Virus record (IMG/VR): IMGVR_UViG_3300033067_001661
Span: 269,624 to 333,623 of that record
DNA: 64,000 nucleotides
Reading direction: 5' to 3' (one strand)
From: a virus
Lineage: Duplodnaviria > Heunggongvirae > Uroviricota > Caudoviricetes
The position numbers and the translations under genes are program-made. Positions 9,301-49,210 of this stretch are shown in pieces; the stretch's first letter is position 1; every line of letters starts with the position of its first letter. The notes under the pieces are model-generated. The model was given only the letters and a program-made list of their open reading frames with translations, did not search any database and was not told the DNA's origin.

Positions 9301-12300
9301 ACGAGTTAGTTGCGTCAACATGAACCGTAAATGGAACTTCACCAGAAGAAGGTGTTACAACGTTTATGAAAGGAATAACTCTGTTGAATACATTTGTTCC
9401 ATAAGAACCAAGAGCTATTGATTTGTAAGAATTCCACCAACGAGAATTCTCGATCCATCTACCAAACTCATTAGTCGTATCTGTTCTCGTATTTGTCAAA
9501 TCGGTCCAGACGTTGTGACGACCTATCCATTCATCAACTCCTATATCAACACCAGGAGGAGAACTACCCGTCCAAGCTGTCCATGATCTAATAACAAAAT
9601 ATCCTTTATCAAAGTCTGGTGGAAAAACCAATCCGCTAGGAGACTTCAAGGTTCCTTTTAGAGTATTCATTACAAACCTAAGGTTTGATGAATCCCATGT
9701 TACGGTAACATTTCCTATATTTCTAGGAGACGTTGGAGATCCTGAATTCCATGTAGAACCATAAGAAGCAGTAACTATAGCTATGGTCGCTATCTTATTA
9801 TTGAATCCGTCTTGTATCTTCTGAGCAACGTCCGCCATGCTTGCTGTTGTTGAGAAGTTTATACCCTCAACCTTTACAGGATAGCCGTCAACAGCGATAA
9901 TGAAACAACCATTTGTAATAGCTTGCCACTGAGCAAGTGTTTTGCTTACAGTTGGAGTAAATCTATGATTACTAGAATAAAGGCTTGGCAAATTGCCATA
10001 CCACATGATATAACCGTCAGCGCCAGAATCAAGAATCTGAGTATACATTCCTTGAGACAAGGTTGCATTCTGCGCCATACCCATAAAGACATTATATCCA
10101 CTAGACTCAAAGAACGTTGGCATAACAAAGGGGTATATTGGTCTAACCTTGCCAAAAACTTCTATGATTTTTTCTATAGTACCCTTTACGATAAGAATTT
10201 CATCAGTCTCTGCTGCTGTCCAACCTTGGTAAAGAGGATATAAAGAAGGAGCAAAGAAGTCATTATAATCAGCAAAAGGAACAGTAACATATACTCCGTT
10301 CTGATATCTCTGATTAATCCTTCTCATGCTAGCATCAAAAACGGAACCAGGAATAGGATGAGCCAAGCCACCGCTGCCCCAATAATAAGCTCCGTAGTAA
10401 CTATTGGCCGAAAATGGAGTTCCATAGTAACCAATCTTAATGTTTGATATACCTTTCAGTCCAGCCCTAACCTTGGTTCTAGTGTACAAGCTTCTAAACT
10501 GTTCAAGGTTTGCGTCAACTTCAGCTTCCGTAACTCCATAAGGCCAATTTGGGCCGGTTACAGTAACATTGCAAAAATCACCTTCAACGTCCCATACAAA
10601 AATATCTGCTTTTTCGGCCAAGAAAGCGTCAAGCTTTGAGTCTATAAACGAATCGGTAAACTGAGACCAACCAGCCGTCATAGAAGAATAAGCTGTATAC
10701 GATCTAACAATATTGTATTGAGACTTTAGCTGAGGAACAGTTGGCATTCCAGAAAAACTTCTTACAGTACCATTGGATGTTGTAGAACCAAAAGTCTCCA
10801 TAACAGTTATGGACCTATCTCTTGTATACTTGTCCGCCGTAGCCATTGAAGAAAGAGCGTGCCACCAATCATTACCAACAACCCATCCATTAGACCATTC
10901 ATTTGAATCAAAGTCTTGGCCCGAATAAATGTTGCTATCATATTCCTGATTTGTATTAGAATATGTACCTATCCAAAGGGCGGAACCAATATTGGTTCCT
11001 CCAACAGGCAAAGATCCGGAATAACCATAGCAATACAAAAACTCTCGTCCTTCATACGAACTATGATCGGGAGGCGTCTGAACAGATGGGGTTGTGTAAG
11101 TAAACTCAAAACACGGAACTTGAGTTGAAGACAATGGGGCATTATTTGAAACACTTGACTGATACGCAACAACAACGCTTCCCATCTCGTAAGGCCTTGA
11201 AGCTGTCAAGCTTGGATATATAGCCGTAGTTGGAAAGAAATTGTTGATGTAGTACAAATCAGCATTTATCGCTGCTTCAATGATATTCGCAACGCTTGTT
11301 GACTCTGCTCCACCAACGCTTGTTGCAACTGAGAAATTAACACCAGTAACCGATCTGTTATATCCTTGCGCAAAATAATTGAAACAACCATTCGTAATGG
11401 TTTGCCAATCAGAAAGCGTCTTAATAGGAACGGCTGGAGGGCCTCCAGAAGCTGTCATAAAGTGACGAACTCTTGCTCTTCTAAAGCTTGGTCTATAAGT
11501 ATTCCAAACAATAGCTCCGTCAGCTATTCTCTTGCACCAAGAAAGCATCTTGATCATATAGTTTCCGCTTACAAGCTTAGAACACCAAGGTGTAGAGAAG
11601 TGGAATGACGGATTCAAGAAAACATACAAAGGCTTATTTCCTGCTGTATACTTTGCAGCTTGAATAAGATTTTCTTTGTAATACACATCATCAAAAGGGT
11701 CTTGCTCTCCATAAAACGGATAAACGTCACAAGTTATGAAATCCGTATAGTCTGAGAATTTCTTTGTATAATAAGAAGCTCCTGATTTTCTAAGATTAAC
11801 TCTTCTAAACTTAGAAGTCCATGTATCATAGCTTGTTGTATACCCAGTATTATTGCCTCTTGAGAACCAATAAAGAACAGGATTGTAGTAGCTCTTGAAG
11901 TTTGGATTGAAGTAAAATCCAACCTTAACATTGCTGATACCCCGTGCTGCAAGAAGCTCTTTTGTTCTTGTATAAACTCGATTGAAAGATTCCAACATAT
12001 TATCTATGACGGTATCAGAATTTGAAGCTGGATCAAGATATGACTGGAAAAACTCCAAATCATAAGCATAATAAAGCGCTTGATTATTACCAAGAGCAGG
12101 ATCTAGCCATGCCGTTATGCCAGCGTTGATATTACTGTCGCTAATAGTTAAAGTTCCAGTGAGAAGGGTTGTTGCTGCCTGAGAATAACTTTCAACAAAC
12201 GGGGATATCCCGCCTGTTTGCATAAAATTGATTCCATAAGATTCAAAACCCGTAAAAGAGGGCTGTCCTGTATAGTTAGAGGACATGAAATACTTGAAAT

Positions 12301-29894: not shown

Positions 29895-29943
29895 TCCACA
29901 CTTAGGTTAGTGTGAAATACAATATATGTGTTGAGATTCCTTC

Positions 29944-30093
29944 TTATTTATCCAGAATTGTAATTCCATTTAAGTGGTCAATCTCATGCTGAGCGCAACG
30001 AGCTTCTAAGTCTCTTAGATGCTCTTTTACTTTCTTGCCCTCATAATTGATATACTCAATGAGTATGTACCTGCTTCGAACAATTTCTTTTCG
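29944..30093 (-). pseudogene. def: Peptide deformylase C-terminal fragment (motif 3 QHEIDHLNG) without its N-terminal half on this strand.
   Basis: Minus-strand translation ...CLFPGFRKEIVRSRYILIEYINYEGKKVKEHLRDLEARCAQHEIDHLNGITILDK matches the PDF C-terminal half (CLS.PG...V.R...EGK...QHE.DHL.G). Upstream on this strand is only antisense of the acidic gene. Confidence 0.6.
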
Positions 30094-30133
30094 AAAGCCT
30101 GGAAAGAGGCAAGTTCCTATAAGGAGATAAGAA

Positions 30134-30334
30134 ATGGGACGAGAAAAGGAATTTGAAGACATTGAGGACTCGTTTGAAAGAGAAGAAGACGACGACCTCG
30201 ATCTTGACGATGAGGACGAAGACGAGGACGAAATCGAAGACAAAGAAGACGAGTTTGACGATGACGAAGAGTACGAAGACGATTACGAAGACGACGATGA
30301 CGACTTCGACCTCGACGACGATGACGAGTTCTAA
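30134..30334 (+). CDS. 66-aa hyper-acidic protein (about 70% Asp/Glu); DNA-mimic or anti-restriction-like candidate.
   Basis: MGREKEFEDIEDSFEREEDDDLDLDDEDEDEDEIEDKEDEFDDDEEYEDDYEDDDDDFDLDDDDEF. AAGGAG SD 6 nt upstream of the ATG. Strong terminator immediately downstream. Confidence 0.6.
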   Translation: MGREKEFEDIEDSFEREEDDDLDLDDEDEDEDEIEDKEDEFDDDEEYEDDYEDDDDDFDLDDDDEF

Positions 30335-30340
30335 ATTAAA

Positions 30341-30366
30341 CCCCGCTTCTTGGCGGGGTTTTCTTT
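30341..30366 (+). terminator. Rho-independent terminator after the acidic-protein gene.
   Basis: CCCCGC-TTCTTG-GCGGGG stem followed by TTTTCTTT. Confidence 0.65.
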
Positions 30367-30369
30367 GGT

Positions 30370-30990
30370 GAAAAACTGGCCGAGTTCGTTTGTATATTCC
30401 GAAAGAGTGAATTGAACGATAAGCAGCCTTCTGTAGTCGGAACGCAGAAGGCGAATGAACAAGAGTATTCGAGACTCTTATCTCTTCTCGAATAGGCTTT
30501 CCCTCTTTGGCCTCTGTTGTAAAGGGGGTTACGCTCTAAAAGAGCGGTCTTTGCTGAGAATTCCGACTTCTACAGCATTGTCTTGGAATCCCGCAAGGGA
30601 TAGCTGCTCAACAAGCTTTGCCTTTTCACTTGTTGACGTAGGTGAAAACAAGACGGCCTGACTGAATGAGAACTAAGTCTTAACGCCGACCTTAAAAGAC
30701 CAACTTAGTAACCGCTTCGGCGGATTCAGTCGCTTTCGCTTTTCTTTTAGAGATGCGTTGGCGGCTGAAAAGGTTGTTGCGCAGCGCAATGGCGCAATTA
30801 AGTTGTTATAGCGCATTACAAAATACTCTTCTATATACTGATACGGATTTGCGATAGCAAAGACGTATCACCGAGCGTAGCGAGGAAAAAGCTGATAACG
30901 TTCCAAACTCCCCTATCCCAATGAAAAGGTACAGTTTTAGAGTGCCGAAACCTGCTTCCAAAATTGAAATTTTCAAACTAAGGACTTAAC
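30370..30990. other. ~620-nt region with no credible ORF, rich in perfect hairpins including UUCG-type tetraloops; candidate structured non-coding RNA or relic. Strand unknown.
   Basis: Hairpins TATTCGAGA...TCTCGAATA (9 bp), CGCTCT-AAA-AGAGCG, CCGC-TTCG-GCGG, GCCTTCTG...CAGAAGGC; repeated GCGCAAT units. Only one 68-aa ORF of low plausibility. Confidence 0.3.
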
Positions 30991-30993
30991 AGA

Positions 30994-31308
30994 TTGAACA
31001 TCGAAGACGTACAACTCATGCAAATACCTTCAGAAATACTTCGACAGAAGTGTATTGAAGTTGATTATTTTGAAGATCTAAAGCCTTTTGCTGACAAGAT
31101 GCTATCTATTATGCTAGCTAACAATGGTATTGGGTTAGCAGCAAATCAGGCAAATATTCCCTGGAGAATGTTTGTAATGAAAACCGAGAAGATGAAGAAA
31201 CCAAAAACCTTCATCAACCCGGTTATTCTTTATGAATGCGTTCCATACAAAGATTCAGAAGGCTGTTTATCTTGCCCTGATGAAAGACTTCTTTTTCGAT
31301 ATTGCTAA
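30994..31308 (+). pseudogene. def: Peptide deformylase N-terminal fragment (motifs GIGLAANQ and EGCLS), truncated just after EGCLSCPDE.
   Basis: MNIEDVQLMQIPSEILRQKCIEV...ANNGIGLAANQANIPWRMFVM...FINPVILYE...DSEGCLSCPDE aligns with E. coli PDF from residue 1 through motif 2, then diverges and stops. The C-terminal half lies ~900 bp away on the opposite strand. Confidence 0.6.
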
Positions 31309-32002
31309 CTGCAATACCGTTCAGGTGTTCAAAATGAGTTGTTCTAAAAACTCTGTTACCTTTCCTCTGTAAAAAACCCTTCCAGAAGGCTATTCTACCT
31401 TCAGCCCAGGTCTTATCGTCAACAAAAGAAAACTCTTTGCGAACCATTGCGGTTAGCCCAAAGAATGTTTCGACAGGAGTTGAAGCGATTCTTAATAGAT
31501 CAATATCAACAATTAGATTCGCCTCATAATCCGCTTCAGGAGGGTTCTTGTCGTGTCTTGTCCATATAACAAGATCGTGAATTCTTCCGGCTCTTTCGGC
31601 TGAGAATCCCATACTAACAAGGTCTTCAAGCGCATACCAAGCGCTTTCTTCTTCGTTTGTTGTCGTCTTCGGGTTTAGACGGTAAATTGAATCGTGATAG
31701 AACCAGGCCAACAAAACGTCGTCAATTGATCCCTCAGAACAATCGCAATCGCTTTCAATTGAGAGTATATCTTTTACACCCTCAATGACATGGTTGAAGT
31801 CGTGATATTGACGATCAACATGAGGTTCCTCAGAGACTGGAGTTGCGTATTTCGCAACAAGAGTATCAAAGTTTGCCCTGGTTTGAACAAGAGCAGAAAG
31901 ACTTGATCTTGCATTGATTGCTCTGTCATAGATGTAAAAGAGATAATCCATCCCAATATCGGGAGTCAATCTCTTATCTGCCATCTTTGTGAAATCTCTC
32001 AT
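31223..32002 (-). CDS. Hypothetical protein, possibly an HD-like metal-dependent hydrolase (several H/D pairs). Weak.
   Basis: 259-aa ORF. YHDFNHV, WFYHDSIY, RIHDLVIWTRHD. Its 3' end overlaps the PDF N-terminal fragment by 85 nt. Confidence 0.3.
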   Translation of the reverse strand: MRDFTKMADKRLTPDIGMDYLFYIYDRAINARSSLSALVQTRANFDTLVAKYATPVSEEPHVDRQYHDFNHVIEGVKDILSIESDCDCSEGSIDDVLLAWFYHDSIYRLNPKTTTNEEESAWYALEDLVSMGFSAERAGRIHDLVIWTRHDKNPPEADYEANLIVDIDLLRIASTPVETFFGLTAMVRKEFSFVDDKTWAEGRIAFWKGFLQRKGNRVFRTTHFEHLNGIAVSNIEKEVFHQGKINSLLNLCMERIHKE

Positions 32003-32511
32003 TTCTTCACCTTCCCCTCAAGAGCAATCGCAACATGCTCAGGAACGTATTTCCTTATCTCTTTCTGCCATCCGTCGTAGCCAATCAAGCTTTTCACAAA
32101 ACTGCTTGAAACAATTGAGAGATCATGCGGCGGTTGCAGCATGACTGTTTCGACGGCAACGCCTCTATCTAAAGCCATTCTACGGTTGATTTCAGCCATT
32201 GTTGACTCAACGGAGAAATCTTCGGCATTTCGAACGCCTCTCAAGAGGTGAGTTGCTTTTTCTTGTTTCACGAAATCAACCAGGTAGTTCGGACCAATTG
32301 CCATTACCTTGACAGTCGGAGGAACACAAATCCTGGTCATTTCGATTCTCTCTTCAACAGAAAAGAGATACCTGCCAACTTTGTTGGGGTTTACCGCAAT
32401 GCAAACAACAAGCTCTTCAAAAAGTTGAGTTCCCTGATTGATTAGCCAGAGATGACCCGCAGTAATAGGGTCAAGGCTTGCCGCATAGATTGCTTTGGGT
32501 CTCATGACCAA
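31999..32511 (-). CDS. coaD: Phosphopantetheine adenylyltransferase (CoaD)-like nucleotidyltransferase.
   Basis: AIYAASLDPITAGH (T/HxGH motif), LLRGVRNAEDFSVE, SIVSSSFVKSL (ISSS motif). Collinear with E. coli CoaD (AIYPGTFDPITNGH...LIRGLRAVADFEYE...SFISSSLVKEV). 170 aa. Confidence 0.65.
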   Translation of the reverse strand: MVMRPKAIYAASLDPITAGHLWLINQGTQLFEELVVCIAVNPNKVGRYLFSVEERIEMTRICVPPTVKVMAIGPNYLVDFVKQEKATHLLRGVRNAEDFSVESTMAEINRRMALDRGVAVETVMLQPPHDLSIVSSSFVKSLIGYDGWQKEIRKYVPEHVAIALEGKVKK

Positions 32512-32535: not shown

Positions 32536-33483
32536 TCAAAAATCAACCTCTTCGTCTTCTCTTAGGTATGGAATATCTGATTGATAGACAGCCATGCTGA
32601 TATCGCAAATTTCCCCAGAATGTTCCTGGGAGAGAACGATAGCCTCAGCAAAACAACAACCTGTCAGGTTTCTGAACGATTCAACAAGCTGACGGAGTAT
32701 CGTGTTTACTTCGTTCTCAGAGGACGCTCTCATAACAGAAAGAGCATGAATGCATCCTTCTGTTTGCTTCTTGGCATTATAGAAGTTTTGCGAAGAGCCA
32801 CCAACAAGATGTTTTCCAAAAAAGGTTGAATCTCTAGGTAGTAGACTTAGTACATGCTTATTCTTGTCATCAATCGTTAGTTTGCGCTTTTCAAAGTCAA
32901 GGATAGATTCTCTATGAACCTTTAGGGTTTGAACTTCATACGGATCTTCCATATCCGCAATAACAGCAAACCAGGATTCATCGTCCTGAACCTTAATTGG
33001 TTCGCAAAGCATGGTTTGTACATTTAGTTTGTGAATTAGCTCATTCTTCGGCTTGAGATTTGTTCCGCCAATAGCAAAGTTGCGATTGCCTTTTTCATCA
33101 ATATATTTTGAAATAGTTATCTTCAGTGTTGGGCTATCGGTTTTCTCTATTTTAGAAACTTGTTCGCCAAGACGGGCTGAGAGTCTGCTAACGCAACGAG
33201 CTAGCTCTTCTTTGTTCTGTATTTCAATGTATGGAACAAAGAAACATCCAGTATTGCAATCCTTATTGATATGCGTAGAAATATTGTCTTTATGAAGCGC
33301 AAGACCAAAGCAGGAAACATCAAAACCAAGAGGAAGTTTCCTGTAACCGTCTTCAATGCTATCAACATCATTAAAGACAAGCTCAAAACGAACATTGCCT
33401 TCGGTTATATAGTGAGGTAGACAGTTTCTGCCCCAACCATTAAGAGGTTCATTTTCCATTGATAACCTTGTCTGCGTTTGCAA
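32536..33483 (-). CDS. Hypothetical protein (315 aa), third gene of the ATPase cassette.
   Basis: ORF overlapping the upstream gene by 35 nt. No recognised motifs. Confidence 0.4.
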   Translation of the reverse strand: MQTQTRLSMENEPLNGWGRNCLPHYITEGNVRFELVFNDVDSIEDGYRKLPLGFDVSCFGLALHKDNISTHINKDCNTGCFFVPYIEIQNKEELARCVSRLSARLGEQVSKIEKTDSPTLKITISKYIDEKGNRNFAIGGTNLKPKNELIHKLNVQTMLCEPIKVQDDESWFAVIADMEDPYEVQTLKVHRESILDFEKRKLTIDDKNKHVLSLLPRDSTFFGKHLVGGSSQNFYNAKKQTEGCIHALSVMRASSENEVNTILRQLVESFRNLTGCCFAEAIVLSQEHSGEICDISMAVYQSDIPYLREDEEVDF

Positions 33484-34027
33484 GTATTTGGGTATTGACT
33501 ATACCATAGTCATTGACTATGTAACTATCAAGGTTGTTGGTTACTATTTTGCCGCAAAATGCCAGGTTCAAACAGAATGAACGAGTAAGCATTTCTTTTG
33601 CTGGTCGATCAACTCCCGTAACGTCAAAAACTTGAAACTCAAGCTTGTCAGAAACTAAGACAATCGAGTTTGTCAAGAGCCGAACGGTTAGATGGTCGTT
33701 TTGTGAAATATGAGCAGCAAGTCTGTCAACAAACTCCTCAGAGATACTCATGGAAGTTTCAACTTCTTTTCCTGCAACTCTTAGACACGCTGTTACAGTC
33801 TCGACCATTCTTTTTGTGTCAAAATAAGAACTTGCAACTAAGAAAACAAATGGTTTACAAGATCCTACCTTTGGAGTAAAAACCTTTGTAACCATATTCT
33901 TCCGAGAGGTTTCTAACAAGATTTTGTTTCTACTTAAAAAGATATCTTTACAAGCAAAACAAAACTCGCTAAGTTTCTGGGAGAGAATGTTAAATCGTGA
34001 TTTGTTTTCTTCCATGTGAATACTCAA
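33449..34027 (-). CDS. Hypothetical protein (192 aa), second gene of the ATPase cassette.
   Basis: Start overlaps the ATPase stop by 4 nt (translational coupling). Confidence 0.4.
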   Translation of the reverse strand: MSIHMEENKSRFNILSQKLSEFCFACKDIFLSRNKILLETSRKNMVTKVFTPKVGSCKPFVFLVASSYFDTKRMVETVTACLRVAGKEVETSMSISEEFVDRLAAHISQNDHLTVRLLTNSIVLVSDKLEFQVFDVTGVDRPAKEMLTRSFCLNLAFCGKIVTNNLDSYIVNDYGIVNTQILANADKVINGK

Positions 34028-35034
34028 TCAACAAGAGGCTGACCCTTGATGATTGGTATATCGAATAAGCAGCTATCCCCAAACTTGTTTTTCACGTGAT
34101 CAATCATAATGCTACTATGAGTTGTCACAATAAACTGTTTAGTTGGAAACTTTTCCAGTATCTTTTCCAGCATTTTTACATGCCTTTTAAAGTATACATG
34201 CATTTCTATATTATCAACGAGAACGATATCGCTTTTGTCAATAACAGCAGGGTCGCAGAGATTTCTTAGAAGCGTTGCAATCTTCTTCTCTCCTGCGCTC
34301 ATGGATTTGTAATGGACTTTAACTTCACCCTTCTGAATCACAAAGTCCTGATAGAATGCAAGTTCAGCATTTTTGTGGTCAGAAAGATGAGCGTAAATCT
34401 CTTCCTTTGAAACTGTTGGTTTTGATTCTGAGGAAGCGATTGCTTTGTAGTTATTTGCGTAAACGCTTATAATCTCTTTAAGAGACTCATTACCCGCTTC
34501 AACGCCTGTAGCTGAAACAGGTTTCTCAACAAAACACTTGTACCCATATATTGCTTCTGCAAGTTCAAGAAAAAGCTCAATCCTCTCGGACGGGATTTGG
34601 AACTTACTATTGTTTATAGGATGGTCTGCGTCAATGAATACTATGTTTTCAGAACCTAGATTTGCAAGATCGTTTCTTATAACATCATCGTCTTTGATGT
34701 GAACGATAAGCTCTTCGCCTTTCTGGTTTTCAAATATAGCAATCATTTCCATATCTTCGTTGTACTTTGTAAAACCTGCGTAGTTTGGGTCGTAGTCTGG
34801 ATGGAACTGCATCTTCCTTAGAAGAAGGTTCTCTTCGTCTTTCTTTCTTTTTGAGTATGCCTTGGCTCTAGAAAGAACAGCAATAGCATTAAGCCCTGTG
34901 CTTTTTCCGCAACCGTTTGGCCCAAAGAATACGCAAAGAGGTTTATAAGAACCGTTGTTATATGTGAATCTGAAAATGCTTCGCTTATTGAAACCTGCGT
35001 AGTTGGATAGTTCTAGTGAACGAATTTTGAGCAT
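34024..35034 (-). CDS. ABC/SMC-type ATPase of the AAA_15/AAA_21 (RecF/OLD-like) class.
   Basis: Walker A FFGPNGCGKST. ABC-signature-like MSAGEKK. Walker B IVLVDNIEMHV. H-loop-like VTTHSS. No fused nuclease domain. Confidence 0.7.
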   Translation of the reverse strand: MLKIRSLELSNYAGFNKRSIFRFTYNNGSYKPLCVFFGPNGCGKSTGLNAIAVLSRAKAYSKRKKDEENLLLRKMQFHPDYDPNYAGFTKYNEDMEMIAIFENQKGEELIVHIKDDDVIRNDLANLGSENIVFIDADHPINNSKFQIPSERIELFLELAEAIYGYKCFVEKPVSATGVEAGNESLKEIISVYANNYKAIASSESKPTVSKEEIYAHLSDHKNAELAFYQDFVIQKGEVKVHYKSMSAGEKKIATLLRNLCDPAVIDKSDIVLVDNIEMHVYFKRHVKMLEKILEKFPTKQFIVTTHSSIMIDHVKNKFGDSCLFDIPIIKGQPLVD

Positions 35035-35041
35035 GAAAAAA

Positions 35042-35075
35042 CCTCCTGACTAACCGTTTATCGGCAATCAGGAGG
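35042..35075 (-). promoter_or_regulatory. Perfect 8-bp hairpin (CCTCCTGA...TCAGGAGG) followed by U6, directly upstream of the ATPase start. Acts as a terminator for the upstream gene and sequesters the ATPase Shine-Dalgarno (GGAGG).
   Basis: Minus strand reads CCTCCTGATTGCCGATAAACGGTTAGTCAGGAGGTTTTTTC-ATG. The 3' arm contains the only SD for the ATG at 35034. Confidence 0.5.
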
Positions 35076-35095
35076 TCGGAAAGGGGGTAGCAATT

Positions 35096-35344
35096 TTAGT
35101 TCTTTGGTTTTGCCTTTTTCTTGGCCTTTTTAGGTTCAGGGTTTTTCTTTTGGAACCAGCCCATCTGATTCAGAATGACGGTCGGCTCAATCGGGTTCTC
35201 GTCGTCCTCTACTCCAAGAAATACAAACGCAAACCTTTTGCCCTTTGGGGACTTAAAGGTTACGTTCATGCCGCCACCAAGTTTGTTGACGAAGCTGGTT
35301 GTTGCTACAACCTGCCCTCTATTTAGAGAAAAAGCGCTTGACAT
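35096..35344 (-). CDS. Small protein (82 aa) with a lysine-rich basic C-terminal tail (KKAKKKAKPKN).
   Basis: ORF with stop in an AAG AAC TAA A context. Possible nucleic-acid-binding tail. Confidence 0.4.
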   Translation of the reverse strand: MSSAFSLNRGQVVATTSFVNKLGGGMNVTFKSPKGKRFAFVFLGVEDDENPIEPTVILNQMGWFQKKNPEPKKAKKKAKPKN

Positions 35345-35527
35345 TCTTGACCTTTTCGGAAATCTTGTAACAGAACCATGAAATCATGGCAAGGATTGCC
35401 ATGCCCATAACATGCTTTTGATGCATAGCACTATTGCGGTCGGATTCCTCGGCAACAGGTTGCATGAAATCTTCAAACTTCTTACTCATAAGCAATCCCC
35501 CGCCCTTTCGAGTAGGGGACTGTTGTA

Positions 35528-36781
35528 TTACTTGGTGACGGGAAGGGTCGCGGGAGTGGTTGTTGAGGCATTGAAGGGGGTATTAGGACGAGCAGAAGGC
35601 TGACCAAGAGCCGTTCTGATAGCGCCCATGAAGTCGCCAGACAGAGAGGTGAAGCTCATGTTCTGAGGGAGGAAACCGTTGAAGTTCTGGAATGCAGAAC
35701 TCATGTTTCGAGAAATCTCAATCTGAGCAAAGGTCTGCCCGCCGATTCCCTCATAAGCCGCATAGAGAAGCTTCTGTGCTTCGGCCTTGGCGCGGCCCTC
35801 AGCAAGAACAGCAGATGCTCTGTTCTCAGCAGCCGCCTTCTCAGCCTCAGACGCAATCTTCAATCTTTCAGCCTCAGCCTGAGCCGCAAGAATGGTTTGC
35901 TGCTTCTGCGCTTCAGCAGCGGTCAGCTTTGCGGCGGCTTCCTGCTCAGCCTTGAGCTTGGCAACCTGCTTGTCTCTTTCGGCCTCAACAACCGCCTTGT
36001 TCAGGTCAGCCTGGGCAACGGCTCTTACTCTCAGAGCGTCAGCCTCAGCAGCTTTGGTTTCTTCGTCGGCGCGCAACTTCTTTTGCTGGGCAATCTGACG
36101 GGCCTTGATTTCCTCAGTGTACTTCGGGTCAAGACCAATCTTCTCAATAACGAAGTTTTCGACAACGATTCCCTGCTTACGGAGTTCGCTGTCAGGAGAA
36201 GCAAGATCCTGCTCGATTTCAGTCTGCAACTTAACAAGGCCTTCGCCAGAATAGGCGTCAGTCGCCTTCATCTTTGTTGCATGATTTTTGACGACCAACT
36301 GAACAGTATTGCGAAGAAGACGCTCTTCGATAATGTTCGGGTCTGCGGCGTCCATGTGAGCATGATAATTCTTGTGGATGCCAACAATGTTGGACTGATC
36401 AAATCTCCAACGAACACTGAGATTGATGTGCATGTCTTGCTGGTCTTGCGACTGGACAAGATATGCGTCATAGTCTCTTCCATGACCGCTTTCGCCCGCT
36501 GAAGCAGGAGAATCATTCATGACGAAAACTCTGCTCGTCATGTCGTAGCGATAGATGTTGGTCGTCATTCGGTTTCTGGAATAGGTTCCAGGAGGAAGAG
36601 GGTTGGGATCAACACCACTCCAGGTCTCTTTGACGCCAACCTCGCTACCAGCAACGGTTTCGAGGTCAACAAGGGTAACACCACACAGAAGAAGACCAAC
36701 ACCAATAACACCCGAAATAGCAAGCTTGACCGGAAATTGACTCATCGAATTTGCTCCTGAATATGGACTTCTGCGACTCAT
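35528..36781 (-). CDS. SPFH/band-7 domain protein (flotillin/YqiK/HflKC-like) with an N-terminal TM helix and a long Ala/Glu/Lys coiled coil.
   Basis: N-terminal hydrophobic segment. SPFH-like core. AQQKKLRADEETKAAEADALRVRAVAQADLNKAVVEAERDKQVAKLKAEQEAAAKL typical of flotillin-like proteins. Confidence 0.65.
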   Translation of the reverse strand: MSRRSPYSGANSMSQFPVKLAISGVIGVGLLLCGVTLVDLETVAGSEVGVKETWSGVDPNPLPPGTYSRNRMTTNIYRYDMTSRVFVMNDSPASAGESGHGRDYDAYLVQSQDQQDMHINLSVRWRFDQSNIVGIHKNYHAHMDAADPNIIEERLLRNTVQLVVKNHATKMKATDAYSGEGLVKLQTEIEQDLASPDSELRKQGIVVENFVIEKIGLDPKYTEEIKARQIAQQKKLRADEETKAAEADALRVRAVAQADLNKAVVEAERDKQVAKLKAEQEAAAKLTAAEAQKQQTILAAQAEAERLKIASEAEKAAAENRASAVLAEGRAKAEAQKLLYAAYEGIGGQTFAQIEISRNMSSAFQNFNGFLPQNMSFTSLSGDFMGAIRTALGQPSARPNTPFNASTTTPATLPVTK

Positions 36782-37248
36782 GACTTTCTTTCTGACTGCC
36801 GTTGCAGCCTGTCGATCTGATCGAGAACTCGATCAGTTTCTGCGGCGGTTTCTGCGGCTCTCCTCTTTAGCTCTTTATCCTTGTAATGCTTGAGAAGATT
36901 AAGGCCTAAGCAAACAACCCCAACAAGGGCTACTGGAGGGACGACAAACTCAAGCAACTGAGGACGCCGAGCAAAGATTGAGACCAGGAAAATAACGGCA
37001 CAAAAACCAAACATAACTAGTGTTATGGTTCCGTAATGATCCTTTTGAGGAACAAAAACAGCGCCTTTATCGGACAGATTCTTGTACTCTTCACCCTGTC
37101 TGTAGAGGTCAACTTGCTCTTTCTTGAACATAACGGTGTTTCTGTCCCTAAACTGTTGAAAAACACCGTCTTCACCAAGTTGATGAACCTTTGAAACGGG
37201 TAGACCAAGCTGGTCTGCGGCTTCTTTCTCTGTTACGAACATTTTCAT
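36778..37248 (-). CDS. Membrane protein (2 TM) with an N-terminal HTH-like segment, translationally coupled to the SPFH gene (NfeD-like partner candidate).
   Basis: 4-nt overlap with the SPFH start. Hydrophobic LVMFGFCAVIFLVSIF and VPPVALVGVVCLGLNLL. Confidence 0.4.
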   Translation of the reverse strand: MKMFVTEKEAADQLGLPVSKVHQLGEDGVFQQFRDRNTVMFKKEQVDLYRQGEEYKNLSDKGAVFVPQKDHYGTITLVMFGFCAVIFLVSIFARRPQLLEFVVPPVALVGVVCLGLNLLKHYKDKELKRRAAETAAETDRVLDQIDRLQRQSERKS

Positions 37249-37276
37249 GTGCTACCTCGCTAACCTTTCCAACCGC

Positions 37277-37849
37277 TTATAGTAGGCTTCGATTTTTCAC
37301 AAAGAACCAAGAGGGCCAAGGTTCCTTTGTCGTTTGGATTTTCGTGTCAACTCTTTTAGCAAACTCGTCAACGGCCTGCTTTACCCCAAAATCTCCATGA
37401 ACAGGTATTTCACCGTTCAAGTAATCATGTCCAGAGATTAGGCCTCCATATCGAACTTTCGTATACCAGGCTTCGATATCTTGTTTCACATATTCGTATT
37501 TGTGGTTTGCGTCTATGTAGACAAAATCAAGAGACTCGTCATCAAAAGCAGAAGCTGCAATCATAGACATTTCTCGTATAATGAAAAACCTGTCACCAAA
37601 CTTCTTTAATCGCTTTTTCGTCTCTTTCAAATGATCTTCTTGTTTATTTTGCGGAACGTTTGAAGCGTCGTTATAAACTTCTTTTTCCTGCTCTTCCCAG
37701 CAATCAATACAGAACAGTTTTTGTCCTTTCCATTTCGAAAGGATAAGTTCAGAAAAGACTCCCCGCTTTACGCCTACTTCTGCTCCTTGTCCAACAAGAT
37801 GCAGACTATTGAGGTAGTCTCCGAAATCTGATCTATATTTGAGTATCAT
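37277..37849 (-). CDS. Class I SAM-dependent methyltransferase, TylF/MycF/FkbM-like (Methyltransf_24-like) small-molecule or sugar O-methyltransferase family.
   Basis: GVFSELIL...LFCIDCWEE and VYIDANHKYEYVKQDIEAWYTKVRYGGLISGHDY match this family's signature layout. Confidence 0.6.
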   Translation of the reverse strand: MILKYRSDFGDYLNSLHLVGQGAEVGVKRGVFSELILSKWKGQKLFCIDCWEEQEKEVYNDASNVPQNKQEDHLKETKKRLKKFGDRFFIIREMSMIAASAFDDESLDFVYIDANHKYEYVKQDIEAWYTKVRYGGLISGHDYLNGEIPVHGDFGVKQAVDEFAKRVDTKIQTTKEPWPSWFFVKNRSLL

Positions 37850-38643
37850 GAGCTATAACTTGTGTAGTTCATTGGCTCATCAAGATTCTCGTTATAGAAA
37901 AACCAGCCAATAAACTGTTCGCCGAAATAATCAGCAATCACAATTTTGACATGAGTTGTTGCAAATCCAATTTCAGGACAACTCTTATTATTGTATCTCT
38001 CTTCGCAAACGTCCTGCTTGAAAACGCTATTTATGATAGAGTCATAGAATATGTCGCTATTTTGCCAGCCAGCGGCCTTAGCTTGTTCAAAAGAAGTGTT
38101 CTTGGTCTTCTTTAGGACTCTTTCAATCATCTTTGGAGCAGAACGAAGTATCAAGGGTTGGCTAATAACCTTGCCTCTGATTTTGCATCGAATATTTGCA
38201 TAAGTCAAACGGAATAGCTCTGAATGTTCTTCTTTTTCAGGAAGCAAAAGAACTCCGCTATCAATAAGGTGAATACCAACCTTCTTGCCATTGATTGTCT
38301 TTGGCGTAAGTTCGCTTATCCTTTCTTGTAAACCATCTGGTAGAGACTTGAACGATCTCATACGACCTCTTTCCTGGTCTTCTTGGAACTTGACCTCTAT
38401 CTTGTCTTTGAATTTTCTTCTTATATTCTTCACGAAACGCTCAGCATCTTCCTTTGATTCAAAGCAGTAATCGCAAGAGGTTGTGTTCCAGCTATAGAAG
38501 CCGCCTTTGTTCTTTTTTGCTTCCTGTTCTATTTTGTCAAATGGAGGACAGAGAGGAAACCCGTCTCCATGAAGCATTTGCTCCATAGATTCTTCGGCTC
38601 CTTGCGCCAACGAAACCGTTACGCTGAACTTGCAATTAGACAT
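37846..38643 (-). CDS. Hypothetical protein (265 aa), translationally coupled upstream of the methyltransferase.
   Basis: ORF with 4-nt overlap to the downstream gene. Cys-containing motifs but nothing recognisable. Confidence 0.4.
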   Translation of the reverse strand: MSNCKFSVTVSLAQGAEESMEQMLHGDGFPLCPPFDKIEQEAKKNKGGFYSWNTTSCDYCFESKEDAERFVKNIRRKFKDKIEVKFQEDQERGRMRSFKSLPDGLQERISELTPKTINGKKVGIHLIDSGVLLLPEKEEHSELFRLTYANIRCKIRGKVISQPLILRSAPKMIERVLKKTKNTSFEQAKAAGWQNSDIFYDSIINSVFKQDVCEERYNNKSCPEIGFATTHVKIVIADYFGEQFIGWFFYNENLDEPMNYTSYSS

Positions 38644-46801: not shown

Positions 46802-49210
46802 TTATACAACTCTTCTGTGTCTCAAAGCTCTAAAGAAGGGATAGCCGTCATTCGTCATGAGGCCCGGCTTAATTACTAAGCCAGGATTTTCTTCTTTCAT
46901 CTTCTTCATCAAAAGAGTCCCAACACCCTGCCTTCGGTATTTTGGAACAACCTCAATCATGCTAATATGCAACTCATTGTCAAATATGTTGTAGCTCAGT
47001 TGTCCAACAAGATCTTTCGTTTGTGTATCGTAGGCTCGTATAACCATGTCCGATTGCCCATGATGATACCCGATACACTCTGAATCCTCAACCTCTATAT
47101 TACTCTTGATAGGCTCTGTGTTTCTCTGGGTCTCGTCCGGCGAAAACTCGCTTGCTAGTTTGCACAAATCGTACCAGCCGCTTGCTCTTCGTTTCGTTTT
47201 TCCCTTGAGCGCTTCCTTCTTTTTACGAGCAATCCCCTCAAGAGTCCAAAGTATCGTCGGGTAGTGAGACCTTTCTTGTTTCTTGTTGAAGTATTTACTT
47301 ATCCATCTTGGTATTCTGATTTGAGTTTGCATAAGAAGTTTTTCAACATCTTCTATAACAGCGTCGTCAAGGCAATACGGAAGGTTCTCTTGTCGATGAG
47401 AGTCGGCTGCTTCGTCTTGGATCTTCTGCCTTTCGTCTTCCCAATCGCTGACCGCTTTTTGATACTCTTCAGGATCTTCAAAATCATCTTCCTGAGGTTC
47501 GTCTGGAAACTCTAAGTAAGAATCATCATAGTAATCAAAGAATTTCTCGTCGTTTTCTTGCCTCTTTTCATATATTTGCGCAATCTGAAACTGAGCGTCA
47601 AGAACCTGAGCCATGAACCTCTTTTGATTTTTCTCGTCAAGCTGATCAAAGCTCTTAAGCTTGCTGTAATCAAACTCTTTAGCTTGACTCATATTGTAAT
47701 AAGCTTTTTCAATAGTTTTCTGCTCAACAGCTTGCGGACTCGTATATCTTTCCCATCCTTGCCATTTATCTTTGAGAGCTTGATTTGTCTCTCTTTGAAC
47801 TGCTGCCGCCGCCTCTGGTATATAGTCTTTGAGGTATATCTTTTTGTTCTCAGGCGACATCCTATCGAACTGTTCTTTCTTCATGACGCTATGCTTTGCA
47901 GACCTATGCGCCCAATTCAGCGCCATTGCTTTCATTTCTTTTTCGTTAATAAGACCTTGATTGAGTTTTTGTATATCAGAATCAACAGCGGCTCTGGCTA
48001 ATACTTTCGAGACATGATGCGTTTGATATCCGCCGTCATTGCGGTATCCTCGATCATTATTGAGTTTATTGTAAACAGCTTCGTATGCGTCTTGATATTC
48101 CCATTTTGTTAGAGATACTGGTAGGCCATAACCCTCCGCTCCCTTATATATGGCTCTTTCAAGATCGTCGTCCATGCTTCCGTAGCTAAGATCGCTATAA
48201 TCAAAGTCGTCCATACCCTCAATAGCAGCGCCTTTGAGAGTTCTCATCCATTCGCCAATCATTGCTTTTAGATTGTCGCTTGGATCGGCATTTCCTGTTT
48301 TAGGACCGTTGCCGTAAATTTGTCTAAACGTCCAACTATTAGGGCTAACCTCCATTGTTACATAAGGCATGTTAGAAGGGTCTCGAAGCGAAAAAATTCT
48401 AGTATTACCCTTCATAACGTCATCGCAATAGCTTCCGACGCAATGACCCATCTTACCGCCTTCGGTTCTTAGGTTGTTTTTTGTTACAACTTGCTTGATT
48501 GTCCAACCGGCCCAATCAGGCCTACTCCATTGAGGACCAAATACAACGTCTTCTCTTTTCTCGCCGTAATACTCAAGCCCCTCGCCTTCTCCAGAAATAA
48601 CATCATGCCAGTTTTCAGCAAACTGATCTGCTTGGTCAAGAGTTAGTCCGGCAAGGTTGGTGTTTGCATTTGTAACGCCGTATTCATTGATAACGATGGC
48701 TTTTTCTTCTGGCGTCTGAGCGGCTTGAAAAGCTTGTCTCGCAGGAAGAACGCCTCTTACATACCAGTCAAATATACTCTGAGCAATATCTGGAATCAGA
48801 GTAAAGTTGACATTTCCTCGCCCAGGAATTGAATATCCGTCGCCAGTTAGAGCCATACCGTCAGGCTTCTTTTTGATCTGATACTCATTTCTTGCTTTTC
48901 TTAGAGATACAAGTAACCACTTTTGAAACTCAAGGTTCTGAAACCTATTGGCAAGCTGAAGCTCTTGAGGAGTGTTTGGGTTTTGCTGAGGTTGCTGGTT
49001 CTGCGGTCTAATCTTGTCCATAAGCAAAGCTGACGGAGTTTGAGGAAACTTGCGCAGATAACCAATAACTTGTTGCTTTAGTTCTGGATTCGTTATCGTT
49101 GTAACAAAACTTACCGTTTCTTCAGGAACTCCAATTCGCGCAAGAAAAGCTTCAACAGAGTTGTCGCCTGCTGCGGATTCTTTTATGATTTGACCATAAT
49201 ACCAGTTCAT
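46802..49210 (-). CDS. Large protein (802 aa) with a C-terminal GNAT acetyltransferase domain.
   Basis: C-terminal IEVVPKYRRQGVGTLLMKKM (GNAT motif A R/Q-x-x-G-x-G/A). N-terminus MNWYYGQ. Confidence 0.55.
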   Translation of the reverse strand: MNWYYGQIIKESAAGDNSVEAFLARIGVPEETVSFVTTITNPELKQQVIGYLRKFPQTPSALLMDKIRPQNQQPQQNPNTPQELQLANRFQNLEFQKWLLVSLRKARNEYQIKKKPDGMALTGDGYSIPGRGNVNFTLIPDIAQSIFDWYVRGVLPARQAFQAAQTPEEKAIVINEYGVTNANTNLAGLTLDQADQFAENWHDVISGEGEGLEYYGEKREDVVFGPQWSRPDWAGWTIKQVVTKNNLRTEGGKMGHCVGSYCDDVMKGNTRIFSLRDPSNMPYVTMEVSPNSWTFRQIYGNGPKTGNADPSDNLKAMIGEWMRTLKGAAIEGMDDFDYSDLSYGSMDDDLERAIYKGAEGYGLPVSLTKWEYQDAYEAVYNKLNNDRGYRNDGGYQTHHVSKVLARAAVDSDIQKLNQGLINEKEMKAMALNWAHRSAKHSVMKKEQFDRMSPENKKIYLKDYIPEAAAAVQRETNQALKDKWQGWERYTSPQAVEQKTIEKAYYNMSQAKEFDYSKLKSFDQLDEKNQKRFMAQVLDAQFQIAQIYEKRQENDEKFFDYYDDSYLEFPDEPQEDDFEDPEEYQKAVSDWEDERQKIQDEAADSHRQENLPYCLDDAVIEDVEKLLMQTQIRIPRWISKYFNKKQERSHYPTILWTLEGIARKKKEALKGKTKRRASGWYDLCKLASEFSPDETQRNTEPIKSNIEVEDSECIGYHHGQSDMVIRAYDTQTKDLVGQLSYNIFDNELHISMIEVVPKYRRQGVGTLLMKKMKEENPGLVIKPGLMTNDGYPFFRALRHRRVV

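What the first reader, a model, noticed from the sequence alone, without database searches (positions are those of the whole stretch)
32536..35344. Compact three-gene cassette: ABC/AAA_21-type ATPase + two uncharacterised proteins, with the ATPase RBS buried in a perfect hairpin
A RecF/OLD-like ATPase (Walker A GPNGCGKST, signature MSAGEKK, H-loop TTHS) is translationally coupled (ATGA overlap) to a 192-aa protein and, via a 35-nt overlap, to a 315-aa protein. Neither partner has recognisable motifs. The ATPase's only Shine-Dalgarno (GGAGG) lies in the 3' arm of a perfect 8-bp hairpin, CCTCCTGA...TCAGGAGG-U6. That hairpin also terminates the upstream basic-tail protein gene, so the cassette is translationally gated. 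ATPases of this class are the engines of many defence and abortive-infection systems (PARIS, Septu, Gabija, Lamassu), usually with a nuclease partner. Here the partners are novel. In a phage context this could be an anti-phage (superinfection exclusion) or counter-defence module of undescribed composition.
Basis: partly seen in the sequence, partly recalled or inferred. Interest (0 to 1): 0.65.

Follow-up and report, generated by a model that had tools for sequence, protein, structure and literature searches.

The report
Huge-phage ABC ATPase operon, orphan partners
A three-gene operon conserved across a clade of uncultivated huge aquatic phages encodes a small ATPase, related to the engines of bacterial anti-phage systems, plus two proteins unlike anything known, behind a conserved RNA hairpin that hides its ribosome-binding site; its function is still unknown.

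Summary
The cassette is real and lies on the minus strand. It comprises an ATPase (35034-34024, 336 aa), a partner of 188 aa (34015-33449) and a partner of 307 aa (33459-32536).

The ATPase is a coiled-coil-less ABC ATPase. Its closest solved relatives are PtuA (Septu, retron Ec78/Ec83) and AriA (PARIS). An invariant Asn replaces the Walker-B catalytic Glu.

Neither partner matches Pfam, PHROGs, PADLOC, NCBIfam or PDB. One structure model failed; the other matched no fold. The 307-aa family has 25 representatives among 1.84 billion proteins. It has no conserved catalytic-type residues and an acidic tail ending in Phe.

The trio recurs in every relative with an ATPase at least 58% identical. 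The ATPase and 188-aa family pair reaches 37-49% relatives on 400-500 kb contigs. That fits vertical inheritance, not a mobile defence island. No defence family's defining partner is present.

The hairpin is confirmed. It is the most stable of 45 gene starts, has compensatory changes and occurs once per locus.

I read it as an ATP-gated sensor complex of unknown output, slightly more likely conflict-related than DNA metabolism. Novelty: new variant of a known kind. Interest is moderate.

The parts
34024..35034 (-). ABC-type ATPase, 336 aa, without a coiled coil. It has Walker A (38-46), Q146, signature S246-G248-E249, Walker B D274 followed by an invariant N275 (not Glu), E277, H279 and H-loop H306. 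A family-specific invariant block covers R73, K74, H78, D80, Y81 and P83.
   Evidence: Pfam AAA_21, SMC_N, AAA_15 and AAA_23 all score above cut-off. PADLOC PtuA gives 5e-22, a partial match. A PDB profile search puts retron Ec83 PtuA first at 1.9e-20, ahead of Septu PtuA, AriA, SMC and RecF. The invariant residues come from 32 diverse homologues. The D-N versus D-E contrast is seen in the alignment to PtuA-type chains.
33449..34015 (-). Middle gene, 188 aa, pI 8.5. It belongs to an orphan family that follows the ATPase even in distant megaphage relatives. It has an N-terminal long helix and an alpha/beta core. Across the whole family only N168, G171 and (nearly) K156 are conserved.
32536..33459 (-). 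Third gene, 307 aa, pI 5.2, net charge -12.7. It belongs to an orphan family found only in the subclade whose ATPase is >=58% identical. Invariant residues are A129, N134, T149 and W163; K138 and G267 are nearly invariant. No conserved Asp, Glu or His is present.
   Evidence: Only 4 clusters were found in the 5.8-billion-protein search, and only 25 representatives among 1.84 billion. The alignment is A7. No family or PDB hits were found. The AF2 model failed, with pLDDT 31.7.
32539..32562 (-). Acidic C-terminal tail REDEEVDF of the 307-aa protein. An acidic run ending in Phe is conserved in 18 of 24 family representatives; 3 end in Leu and 1 in Tyr.
   Evidence: Alignment A7 and charge and pI figures. 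The likeness to the tails of SSB and T7 gp2.5 is from my own knowledge and was not tested.
35036..35077 (-). Conserved 5' hairpin plus U-run. The 5' arm CCTCCTGA (35075-35068) acts as an anti-Shine-Dalgarno sequence. The loop holds the conserved motif GCCGAUA (35065-35059). The 3' arm UCAGGAGG (35049-35042) contains the Shine-Dalgarno sequence, followed by U6 (35041-35036). It looks like an intrinsic terminator for the upstream gene and occludes the ATPase ribosome-binding site.
   Evidence: Sequence. dG of -24.1, the most stable of 45 gene starts. Conserved in all relatives with ATPase >=65% identical, with covarying arms. 96.7% of cells paired, 4 pairs with changes on both sides, 0 of 500 shuffles reach the covariation score, and slid registers give 33-61% pairing. 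One copy per locus in 328 kb. No Rfam family.
35096..35344 (-). Upstream 82-aa protein with a basic tail (phrog_8770, unknown function). It is a neighbour, not a constant part of the cassette. It lies in a variable insertion zone between the 265-aa family gene and the ATPase.
   Evidence: PHROG hit at 5.6e-11. It is present in L001, L002, L008 and L010 but absent in L009, L012 and L013.

Best explanation
Shown:
- This is a conserved three-gene operon of a clade of uncultivated huge aquatic phages.
- The first gene encodes a minimal ABC ATPase without a coiled coil. It belongs to the PtuA/AriA (AAA_15/AAA_21) branch.
- All its nucleotide-binding motifs are intact, but an invariant Asn replaces the Walker-B catalytic Glu.
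- The two tightly spaced downstream genes encode lineage-specific proteins with no catalytic signature. One is a basic 188-aa protein that travels with the ATPase over deep divergence. The other is a fast-evolving acidic 307-aa protein with a conserved acidic, Phe-terminated tail.
- A conserved hairpin directly before the ATPase start pairs the only Shine-Dalgarno sequence with an anti-Shine-Dalgarno sequence. In the subclade with ATPase >=65% identical, a U-run follows it.

Inferred:
- The three proteins form one complex. The ATPase dimer would act as a slow ATP-binding switch or sensor rather than a motor.
- The 188-aa protein would be the adaptor that binds the ATPase head. The 307-aa protein would be the output or docking subunit, working through its tail.
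- The hairpin keeps expression low by terminating read-through from upstream, by blocking ribosome entry, or both.
- All characterised relatives of the ATPase work in host-virus or virus-virus conflict. I therefore think the most likely role is a phage-borne conflict function: exclusion of competing phages or handling of a host defence.
- It would use a new pair of partners, not a Septu, PARIS or Lamassu effector.

I give the anatomy about 0.9 and the conflict-function reading about 0.4.
For: - ATPase class and nearest relatives. PtuA and AriA score E 1e-20 to 1e-8, against SMC and RecF at 1e-6 to 1e-4 over the N-terminus only.
- Intact motifs and invariant D-N.
- Operon spacing is conserved: an 8-nt gap, then an 11-nt or 4-nt overlap or a 4-nt gap.
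- The trio is present in every locus with ATPase >=58% identical: window, L001-L003, L008-L014, L018-L031, L057 and L083-L086.
- The pair of ATPase and 188-aa family persists at 37-49% ATPase identity, on contigs of 72 to about 500 kb.
- The partners evolve much faster than the ATPase. Where the ATPase is 65-69% identical, the partners are 40-42% and 26-31% identical.
- The partners are orphans.
- The hairpin is conserved and covaries.
- Phage origin: IMG/VR contigs of 85-494 kb, and PHROG hits to ribonucleotide reductase, thymidylate synthase and lysozyme in the window.
Against: - No effector domain is identifiable, and neither partner keeps conserved acidic or His residues.
- PADLOC finds no system.
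- The cassette is vertically inherited and syntenic, next to helicases and nucleotide-metabolism genes. It has no composition anomaly. This fits a housekeeping DNA-transaction role at least as well.
- Nothing was tested experimentally.
- Complex formation is inferred only from co-occurrence and gene spacing.
- In distant, smaller phages the ATPase stands alone next to tail and virion genes, so the partners are not obligatory for the family.
Confidence: 0.4

Rival explanations
1. It is a housekeeping module for the phage's own DNA transactions. The ATPase would act as a RecF- or Rad50-head-like ATP-dependent clamp that recognises DNA ends or gaps. The basic 188-aa protein would be its cofactor. 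The acidic 307-aa protein would be an ssDNA-binding or hub protein. Its Phe-terminated acidic tail would recruit replication or repair partners, as the tails of bacterial SSB and T7 gp2.5 do.
For: - The cassette is conserved clade-wide and syntenic with an SNF2 helicase, a UvrD helicase, ribonucleotide reductase and thymidylate synthase.
- The ATPase is under strong purifying selection.
- The size and lack of a coiled coil resemble RecF, and there are weak N-terminal hits to RecF, SMC, Rad50 and SbcC.
- No effector is present.
- The 307-aa family has a conserved acidic tail ending in Phe and a low pI.
- In megaphage relatives that lack the 307-aa family, the 188-aa family protein itself carries an acidic C-terminus.
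Against: - The ATPase is clearly closer to PtuA and AriA than to RecF, SMC or Rad50.
- The RecF equivalog scores 26.9 bits against a cut-off of 172.
- Neither partner shows any detectable OB fold or likeness to RecO, RecR or Mre11.
- The likeness of the tail is a recalled analogy, not a test.
- The tight repression by the hairpin and the rapid evolution of the partners are unusual for a core replication factor.
Confidence: 0.3
2. It is a divergent member of a known three-component ABC defence system (Lamassu / ABC-3C), carried by a phage. The ATPase would be a truncated LmuB, the 188-aa protein the middle component (LmuC/MC), and the 307-aa protein an effector with a C-terminal docking domain (LmuA).
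For: - The layout has three genes, with a small globular middle protein.
- One of ten members of the 188-aa family gives a weak Pfam hit to PF20131 MC3, at E 0.042.
- The ABC-3C architecture is described in PMC11707656.
Against: - The ATPase has no long coiled coil. It is 336 aa, with at most 100 residues between the Q-loop and the signature motif.
- PADLOC's Lamassu models match neither partner in 10 and 25 family members scanned.
- The 307-aa family has no effector domain, no Pfam CTD hit and no conserved catalytic residues.
- The gene order differs.
- The single MC3 hit is at noise level.
Confidence: 0.07
3. The three genes are merely neighbours in a conserved genome backbone and do not work together. 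The hairpin is just the intrinsic terminator of the upstream accessory-gene block.
For: - In phages of this clade many neighbouring genes are syntenic (the CoaD-like gene, the 259-aa gene and the deformylase), so co-occurrence alone is weak evidence.
- Foreign genes can be inserted inside the cassette: a sulfotransferase in L013/L014 and TyrRS in L015/L034.
- Distant ATPase homologues occur without partners.
Against: - The 188-aa family tracks the ATPase across 37-96% identity even where the rest of the neighbourhood changes.
- Conserved gaps or overlaps of 2-11 nt, and weak Shine-Dalgarno sequences on the downstream genes, fit co-translation.
- Megaphage relatives keep a hairpin that occludes the Shine-Dalgarno sequence but has no U-run, so plain termination does not explain it there.
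Confidence: 0.12

Closest known systems
PtuA of Septu and of retron Ec78/Ec83 (type I-A) systems
   Same: These are the best solved-structure and PADLOC relatives. The ATPases share Walker A, the signature motif, Walker B, the H-loop and the ...LH... motif after Walker B. PtuA acts as an ATP-regulated scaffold or sensor for a partner protein.
   Different: PtuA is 450-550 aa and has a large insertion or dimerisation domain; this ATPase is 336 aa. The match covers only the two half-sites. The NCBIfam PtuA equivalog scores 50 bits against a cut-off of 500. PtuA has D-E in Walker B, whereas this family has an invariant D-N. There is no PtuB HNH nuclease and no retron RT or ncRNA.
AriA of PARIS (AriA-AriB)
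   Same: Same ATPase branch: PADLOC AriA at 4e-12 and PDB AriA at 2.4e-8. PARIS is often phage- or satellite-borne. Its ATPase works as a sensor scaffold rather than a motor.
   Different: No AriB (Toprim/DUF4435) partner is present. This ATPase is much shorter, and its partners are unrelated orphans.
Lamassu / ABC-3C (LmuB-LmuC-LmuA; DdmABC)
   Same: The logic has three components: an ABC ATPase, a small middle protein and a larger third protein with a C-terminal docking element (PMC11707656).
   Different: LmuB is an SMC/Rad50-like protein with a long coiled coil. LmuA carries a recognisable effector, for example the Cap4 nuclease. None of these features was detected here.
RecF (RecFOR pathway)
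   Same: Similar size (about 340-360 aa). It is an ABC head without a long coiled coil and works with two small partners. From my own knowledge, RecF is a slow ATPase switch on DNA.
   Different: Sequence similarity is limited to the Walker A region. No RecO or RecR homology was found, and the phylogenetic affinity is with PtuA and AriA.
Translational operators and Shine-Dalgarno-sequestering terminator hairpins of phage mRNAs
   Same: A stable stem pairs the Shine-Dalgarno sequence with an upstream anti-Shine-Dalgarno sequence. The conserved loop sequence could be a protein-binding site. A U-run follows, as in an intrinsic terminator.
   Different: There is no Rfam family. The binding factor, if any, is unknown. 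The U-run doubles as the spacer between the Shine-Dalgarno sequence and the ATG, so termination would end transcripts 1-2 nt before the start codon.

Membership tests
ABC ATPase superfamily, AAA_15/AAA_21 (PtuA/AriA/OLD-like) branch | Walker A, Q-loop, ABC signature, Walker B and H-loop in the canonical order; Pfam AAA_21 or AAA_15 above the gathering score | tested here: met
   AAA_21 scores 44.1 bits (cut-off 27) and AAA_15 scores 41.1 (cut-off 32.1). The motifs are invariant in 32 homologues. The exception is that Asn replaces the catalytic Glu after the Walker B Asp.
Septu (PtuA + PtuB) | A PtuA-type ATPase at equivalog level | tested here: not met
   NCBIfam NF041760 PtuA scores 50.2 bits against a cut-off of 500. 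The PADLOC PtuA hits are partial, in two stretches.
Septu (PtuA + PtuB) | An adjacent PtuB HNH nuclease | tested here: not met
   Neither partner has an HNH or any other Pfam or PADLOC hit.
PARIS (AriA + AriB) | An adjacent AriB Toprim/DUF4435 nuclease | tested here: not met
   The partners give no Toprim, DUF4435 or AriB hit. Similarity to AriA is partial only.
Lamassu / ABC-3C | An SMC/Rad50-like ATPase with a long coiled-coil insertion | tested here: not met
   The protein is 336 aa. The insertion between Q146 and S246 is at most 100 residues, and about 45 residues shorter in distant homologues.
Lamassu / ABC-3C | A middle component (Pfam MC families / LmuC) and an effector with a CTD (LmuA) | tested here: not met
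   One of ten members of the 188-aa family hits MC3 at E 0.042. There are no PADLOC Lmu hits in 10 and 25 members, and no CTD or effector domain in the 307-aa family.
Gabija / OLD-family nucleases | A Toprim nuclease domain fused to the ATPase; for Gabija, also a UvrD-like GajB neighbour | tested here: not met
   The ATPase is a bare ABC domain. The neighbouring genes are the two orphans.
RecF / RecFOR | A RecF equivalog score; RecO and RecR partners | tested here: not met
   TIGR00611 scores 26.9 bits against a cut-off of 172, over residues 31-67 only. The partners give no RecO or RecR hit.
Rad50/SbcC-Mre11/SbcD | A coiled coil with a zinc hook; a calcineurin-like phosphoesterase partner | tested here: not met
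   Hits to SbcC and Rad50 cover only the N-terminal Walker A region. No Metallophos hit was found in the partners.
Intrinsic terminator / ribosome-binding-site-sequestering hairpin | A stable G+C-rich stem followed by a U-run; the Shine-Dalgarno sequence inside the stem; the helix maintained by compensatory change | tested here: met
   dG of -24.1, U6, and GGAGG in the 3' arm. 96.7% of cells paired, 4 pairs with changes on both sides, and 0 of 500 shuffles reach the covariation score.
Intrinsic terminator / ribosome-binding-site-sequestering hairpin | Actual termination, or repression of translation | not testable with these tools
   This needs transcript 3'-end mapping or reporter fusions.

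The most novel reading that the evidence does not exclude
This would be a previously unrecognised three-component ABC-ATPase system that is a core feature of a clade of huge marine and aquatic phages. Its ATPase would be locked as an ATP-binding switch (Walker B D-N). It would be partnered by two new protein folds. One partner would present an SSB-like acidic, Phe-terminated tail to capture host or phage proteins that read such tails. The operon would be autoregulated through a dedicated 5' operator hairpin: the conserved GCCGAUA loop on a stem that sequesters the Shine-Dalgarno sequence.
Probability: 0.15. Interest if true: 0.7.

Novelty: new variant of a known kind. Interest (0 to 1): 0.45.

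Why it matters
Small ABC ATPases of the PtuA/AriA branch are the sensors of several bacterial anti-phage systems. Here one is fixed as a lineage-wide gene of huge phages, and its partners have no known relatives. If the three proteins form a complex, two outcomes are possible. The complex could be a new effector or adaptor solution for this ATPase class, and a phage-side player in virus-host or virus-virus conflict. Or it could show that this 'defence' ATPase branch also has a housekeeping role in phage DNA metabolism. Either result would help in interpreting the many orphan AAA_15/AAA_21 genes in viral metagenomes. The hairpin is a compact, well-supported candidate for combined transcriptional and translational gating, and it can be tested directly.

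Tried and rejected
**Dead ends**
- GenBank phages hold nothing similar: no match by DNA (distant mode), none by tblastn of either partner, and none by tblastn of the ATPase.
- With close homologues only, the 307-aa model failed at pLDDT 31.7. The 188-aa model reached pLDDT 65.
- PDB profile searches with both partner families found nothing.
- Per-member Pfam and PADLOC scans of both partner families gave only scattered single hits.
- The ABC ATPase classification paper (PMC7544218) is not held in the library.

**Ideas rejected**
- The two partners are paralogues. hhalign gives a probability of 0.1%.
- GCCGATA is a genome-wide promoter motif. There are 3 hits against 3.7 expected by chance, and model R1 finds the element once per locus.
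- The similar 'CCGA(A/T)AAA' upstream of distant ATPases is explained by the coding sequence of a divergent gene (by inspection).
- The 265-aa upstream family is a diverged RlaP. phmmer shows no similarity.
- The CoaD-like gene is functionally linked to the cassette. CoaD homologues at <=43% identity in other phages have no ATPase within 8 kb. In one 498-kb contig the two genes are about 300 kb apart.
- The 188-aa protein is a PD-(D/E)xK-type nuclease. D136 and D163 are not conserved in distant members.
- The 307-aa protein is a tubulin- or PhuZ-like protein. The 'AIGGTN' glycines are not conserved.

**Incomplete**
- The scan of 185,579 species genomes found no true homologue.


Full report
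**1. What is in the sequence**

The finding lies on the minus strand. Reading 5' to 3' on that strand, the parts are as follows:
- An 82-aa ORF with a basic tail (35344-35096, pI 10.2).
- A hairpin. Its 5' arm CCTCCTGA is at 35075-35068, its loop is 18 nt, and its 3' arm TCAGGAGG is at 35049-35042.
- T6, then C, then the ATG of a 336-aa ORF (35034-34024).
- Two further ORFs, ending at 33449 and 32536.

Two details are wrong.
- The ATPase stop is followed by TTGA, not ATGA.
- Every homologue of the second protein is 188 aa and starts at the ATG at 34015, 8 nt after the stop. Every homologue of the third protein is 306-307 aa and starts at the ATG at 33459, which gives an 11-nt overlap.

The 8-nt gap recurs in L001, L002, L009 and L010. 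The second junction is an 11-nt overlap, a 4-nt overlap or a 4-nt gap. The genes are therefore tightly packed and probably co-translated, but not in the way first described.

**2. The ATPase**

Pfam places it in AAA_21, SMC_N, AAA_15 and AAA_23, all above cut-off. The PADLOC hits are generic and partial: PtuA at 5e-22, then AbiLi, mad3 and AriA. NCBIfam PtuA scores 50 bits against a cut-off of 500, and RecF scores 27 against 172.

A profile of 32 diverse homologues was searched against PDB sequences. The ranking was:
- retron Ec83 PtuA, 1.9e-20;
- Septu PtuA, 1.9e-13;
- retron Ec78 PtuA;
- AriA, 2.4e-8;
- SMC1, 2.7e-6;
- RecF, 4e-4, and then Rad50 and SbcC, which match only the N-terminal Walker A region.

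So the protein belongs to the PtuA/AriA branch, but it is a minimal version with no long insertion.

Alignment A8 shows these invariant features:
- Walker A, Q146, S246/G248/E249, D274, H279 and H306;
- N275 at the position where PtuA-type chains have the catalytic Glu (IVLVDNIEMH against IVLIDEIDLH);
- a family-specific block of R73, K74, H78, D80, Y81 and P83.

I infer a slow ATP-binding switch. E277 might substitute as the catalytic base. Neither point was tested.

**3. The partners**

Neither protein matches Pfam, PHROGs, PADLOC or NCBIfam. Neither matches GenBank phages by tblastn or PDB sequence profiles.

The word-indexed search of 5.8 billion proteins found only 4-5 clusters each, at 72% identity or more. 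An exhaustive HMMER search of 1.84 billion representatives found just 25 for the 307-aa family. Most are about 300 aa; a few are shorter (109-253 aa), apparently truncated or split.

*The 307-aa family (alignment A7).*
- It keeps only A129, N134, T149 and W163 invariant, with K138 and G267 nearly so. No Asp, Glu or His is conserved, so it is unlikely to be an enzyme.
- It keeps an acidic C-terminal run ending in Phe in 18 of 24 members. In the window this is REDEEVDF, and the protein has pI 5.2 and charge -12.7.
- From my own knowledge, this resembles the docking tails of bacterial SSB and T7 gp2.5. That is a lead, not a test.

*The 188-aa family (pI 8.5).*
- Across its full range it keeps only N168, G171 and (nearly) K156.
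- Its AF2 model has pLDDT 65 and is confident over residues 65-165.

The 307-aa model failed, at pLDDT 31.7. The two families are unrelated to each other. Scans of every family member against Pfam and PADLOC gave only scattered single hits. One of these was a lone MC3 (ABC-3C middle component) hit at E 0.042.

**4. Distribution and context**

The ATPase family is large: 228 hits in the protein search, 280-345 aa, some labelled by JGI as 'predicted ATP-binding protein involved in virulence / AAA15'. It lies almost entirely on metagenomic viral contigs. Two further searches bear on this:
- GenBank phages gave no tblastn match.

The pattern by ATPase identity is as follows.
- *58% or more.* In every locus the ATPase is followed by the 188-aa and 307-aa families: window, L001-L003, L008-L014, L018-L031, L057 and L083-L086. 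L013/L014 have a sulfotransferase gene inserted between the two partner genes.
- *37-49%.* These loci lie on contigs of 72 to about 500 kb. The 188-aa family is still present, either adjacent or just after an inserted TyrRS gene. The 307-aa family is not detected. There the 188-aa family protein itself often ends in an acidic tail.
- *32-39%.* These are smaller phages. The ATPase stands alone beside tail-fibre and virion genes.

Within the window's clade the block is syntenic. The order is SNF2 helicase, a 265-aa family gene, a variable insert, the ATPase, the 188-aa gene, the 307-aa gene, a CoaD-like gene, a gene of about 250 aa, and the deformylase. The window also carries ribonucleotide reductase, thymidylate synthase, a UvrD helicase and a lysozyme. 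Its G+C content is uniform.

The partners diverge much faster than the ATPase. Where the ATPase is 65-69% identical, the partners are 40-42% and 26-31% identical.

Together this shows vertical inheritance in a phage lineage, not a mobile defence island. By itself it does not decide between a conflict function and a housekeeping function.

**5. The hairpin**

In the window it is the most stable 5' structure of 45 gene starts: dG of -24.1 against a mean of -9.6 and sd of 4.9. The Shine-Dalgarno sequence is fully paired.

All relatives with an ATPase at least 65% identical have the hairpin. It has 9-14 contiguous pairs, the 3' arm ends in GGAGG, and a U-run leads to the ATG. The arm segments beyond the anti-Shine-Dalgarno sequence covary: TGA/TCA, TGGC/GCCA, TGC/GCA, CGGTA/TACCG, GGTTG/CAACT and TTGACATT/AATGTCAG.

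On alignment A10:
- 96.7% of cells pair.
- 4 of 10 pairs show changes on both sides.
- 0 of 500 shuffles reach the covariation score.
- Slid registers fall to 33-61% pairing.

The megaphage relatives L015, L017 and L048 also fold their Shine-Dalgarno sequence into stable stems (dG -20 to -26), but with no U-run. Their 7-8-bp stems alone are not significant against shuffles. L012 and L013 lack the hairpin.

The loop keeps the motif G(C/U)CGAUA while the stem changes. That motif persists upstream of the ATG even in L012 and L013. It is not a genome-wide motif. A covariance model finds exactly one copy per locus in 328 kb. There is no Rfam match.

Three readings remain open and untested:
- it acts as a terminator;
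- it acts as a translational gate;
- it is an operator for a factor that binds the loop. A variant of this is a promoter inside the loop, whose transcripts would lack the anti-Shine-Dalgarno arm.

**6. Interpretation**

Shown:
- an operon;
- the ATPase class, with an unusual Walker B;
- two orphan, apparently non-catalytic partner families;
- clade-wide conservation;
- a selected 5' hairpin.

Inferred:
- The three proteins form one complex.
- In it, the ATPase dimer is an ATP-gated sensor.
- The 188-aa protein is the conserved adaptor.
- The 307-aa protein is a fast-evolving output or docking subunit.

All characterised relatives of this ATPase branch act in conflict systems. The partners evolve quickly, and expression is throttled. 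I therefore rank a phage-borne conflict role first, at about 0.4: exclusion of competitors or dealing with a host defence.

A role in the phage's own DNA transactions is close behind, at about 0.3. It is supported by the synteny, the missing effector and the SSB-like tail.

The remaining rivals are 'divergent Lamassu/ABC-3C' (about 0.07) and 'unrelated neighbours' (about 0.12).

Membership in Septu, PARIS, Lamassu, Gabija/OLD, RecFOR and Rad50-Mre11 fails in each case on the defining partner or domain (see the membership table).

**7. Verdict**

This is a new variant of a known kind: an ABC-ATPase module with new partners and a conserved regulatory hairpin. Interest is moderate (0.45). It is well-delimited, conserved 'dark matter' with clear experiments available, but there is no functional evidence yet.

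Noticed in passing
window 30096-31282 (junctions at 30095/30096 and 31282/31283): A 1,187-bp segment is inverted relative to four relatives (L083, L002, L004, L001; 83-94% identity). The inversion splits the peptide deformylase gene. Its N-terminal 104 codons are on the + strand at 30994-31308 (PF01327, 4.7e-21). The part with the QHEIDHLNG motif is on the - strand at about 29895-30010. The inversion also alters the C-terminus of the 259-aa gene. No inverted repeats lie at the junctions. I cannot tell a real rearrangement from an assembly error.
   Followed up: partly
window 31999-32505 (-) and 31223-32002 (-); L014 3421-4608: A phage-encoded gene resembles pantetheine-phosphate adenylyltransferase (CoaD). 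TIGR01510 scores 128.7 bits against a cut-off of 103.3. A conserved protein of about 250 aa with no Pfam hit follows it. The two are fused into one 395-aa protein in L014. The pair is conserved out to megaphage L015. CoaD-like genes are widespread in huge-phage contigs.
   Followed up: partly
window 35345-37849 (-), between the 265-aa family gene (37846-38643) and the 82-aa gene: This is a variable insertion zone just upstream of the ATPase hairpin. In the window it holds a Methyltransf_24 methyltransferase (37277-37849), a 156-aa excisionase-like HTH protein (36778-37248), a Band_7/SPFH protein (35528-36781) and small ORFs. L001 has only an 88-aa gene here, and L012 and L013 have nothing.
   Followed up: partly
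window 29900-30990; tandem repeats at 30206-30327; hairpin at 30338-30361 (+): An ORF-poor stretch of about 0.6-1.1 kb lies between the small gene after the 259-aa gene and the deformylase. It is present in all relatives. In the window it carries GAC/GAA-rich tandem repeats and a strong terminator-like hairpin. No tRNA and no significant Rfam hit was found.
   Followed up: partly
L013 6565-7335 and L014 1774-2544; L015 5908-7101; L034 5876-7153: Foreign genes are inserted inside the cassette in relatives. A sulfotransferase (PF13469) sits between the 188-aa and 307-aa homologues. A tyrosyl-tRNA synthetase sits between the ATPase and the 188-aa family gene in L015; a 425-aa ORF occupies the same position in L034/L062 but was not scanned against Pfam. 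In those megaphages an RlaP nucleotidyltransferase and a cREC domain gene lie immediately upstream of the ATPase.
   Followed up: no
window 3398-13666 (-): A giant 3,422-aa ORF has no PHROG hit at E <= 1e-5. The adjacent 747-aa ORF (1142-3385) also has none.
   Followed up: no
window gene starts at 29885 (-) and 38643 (-): Two other genes have their Shine-Dalgarno sequence fully buried in stable 5' hairpins (dG -21.7 and -19.7). Occlusion of the ribosome-binding site may therefore be a recurrent regulatory device in this phage.
   Followed up: no
window 51355-53670 (-) and 46802-49210 (-): Two unusual domain combinations were seen: a UvrD-type helicase with an N-terminal topoisomerase-I C4 zinc ribbon, and an 802-aa protein that combines a PcfJ-like domain with a C-terminal GNAT acetyltransferase.
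   Followed up: no
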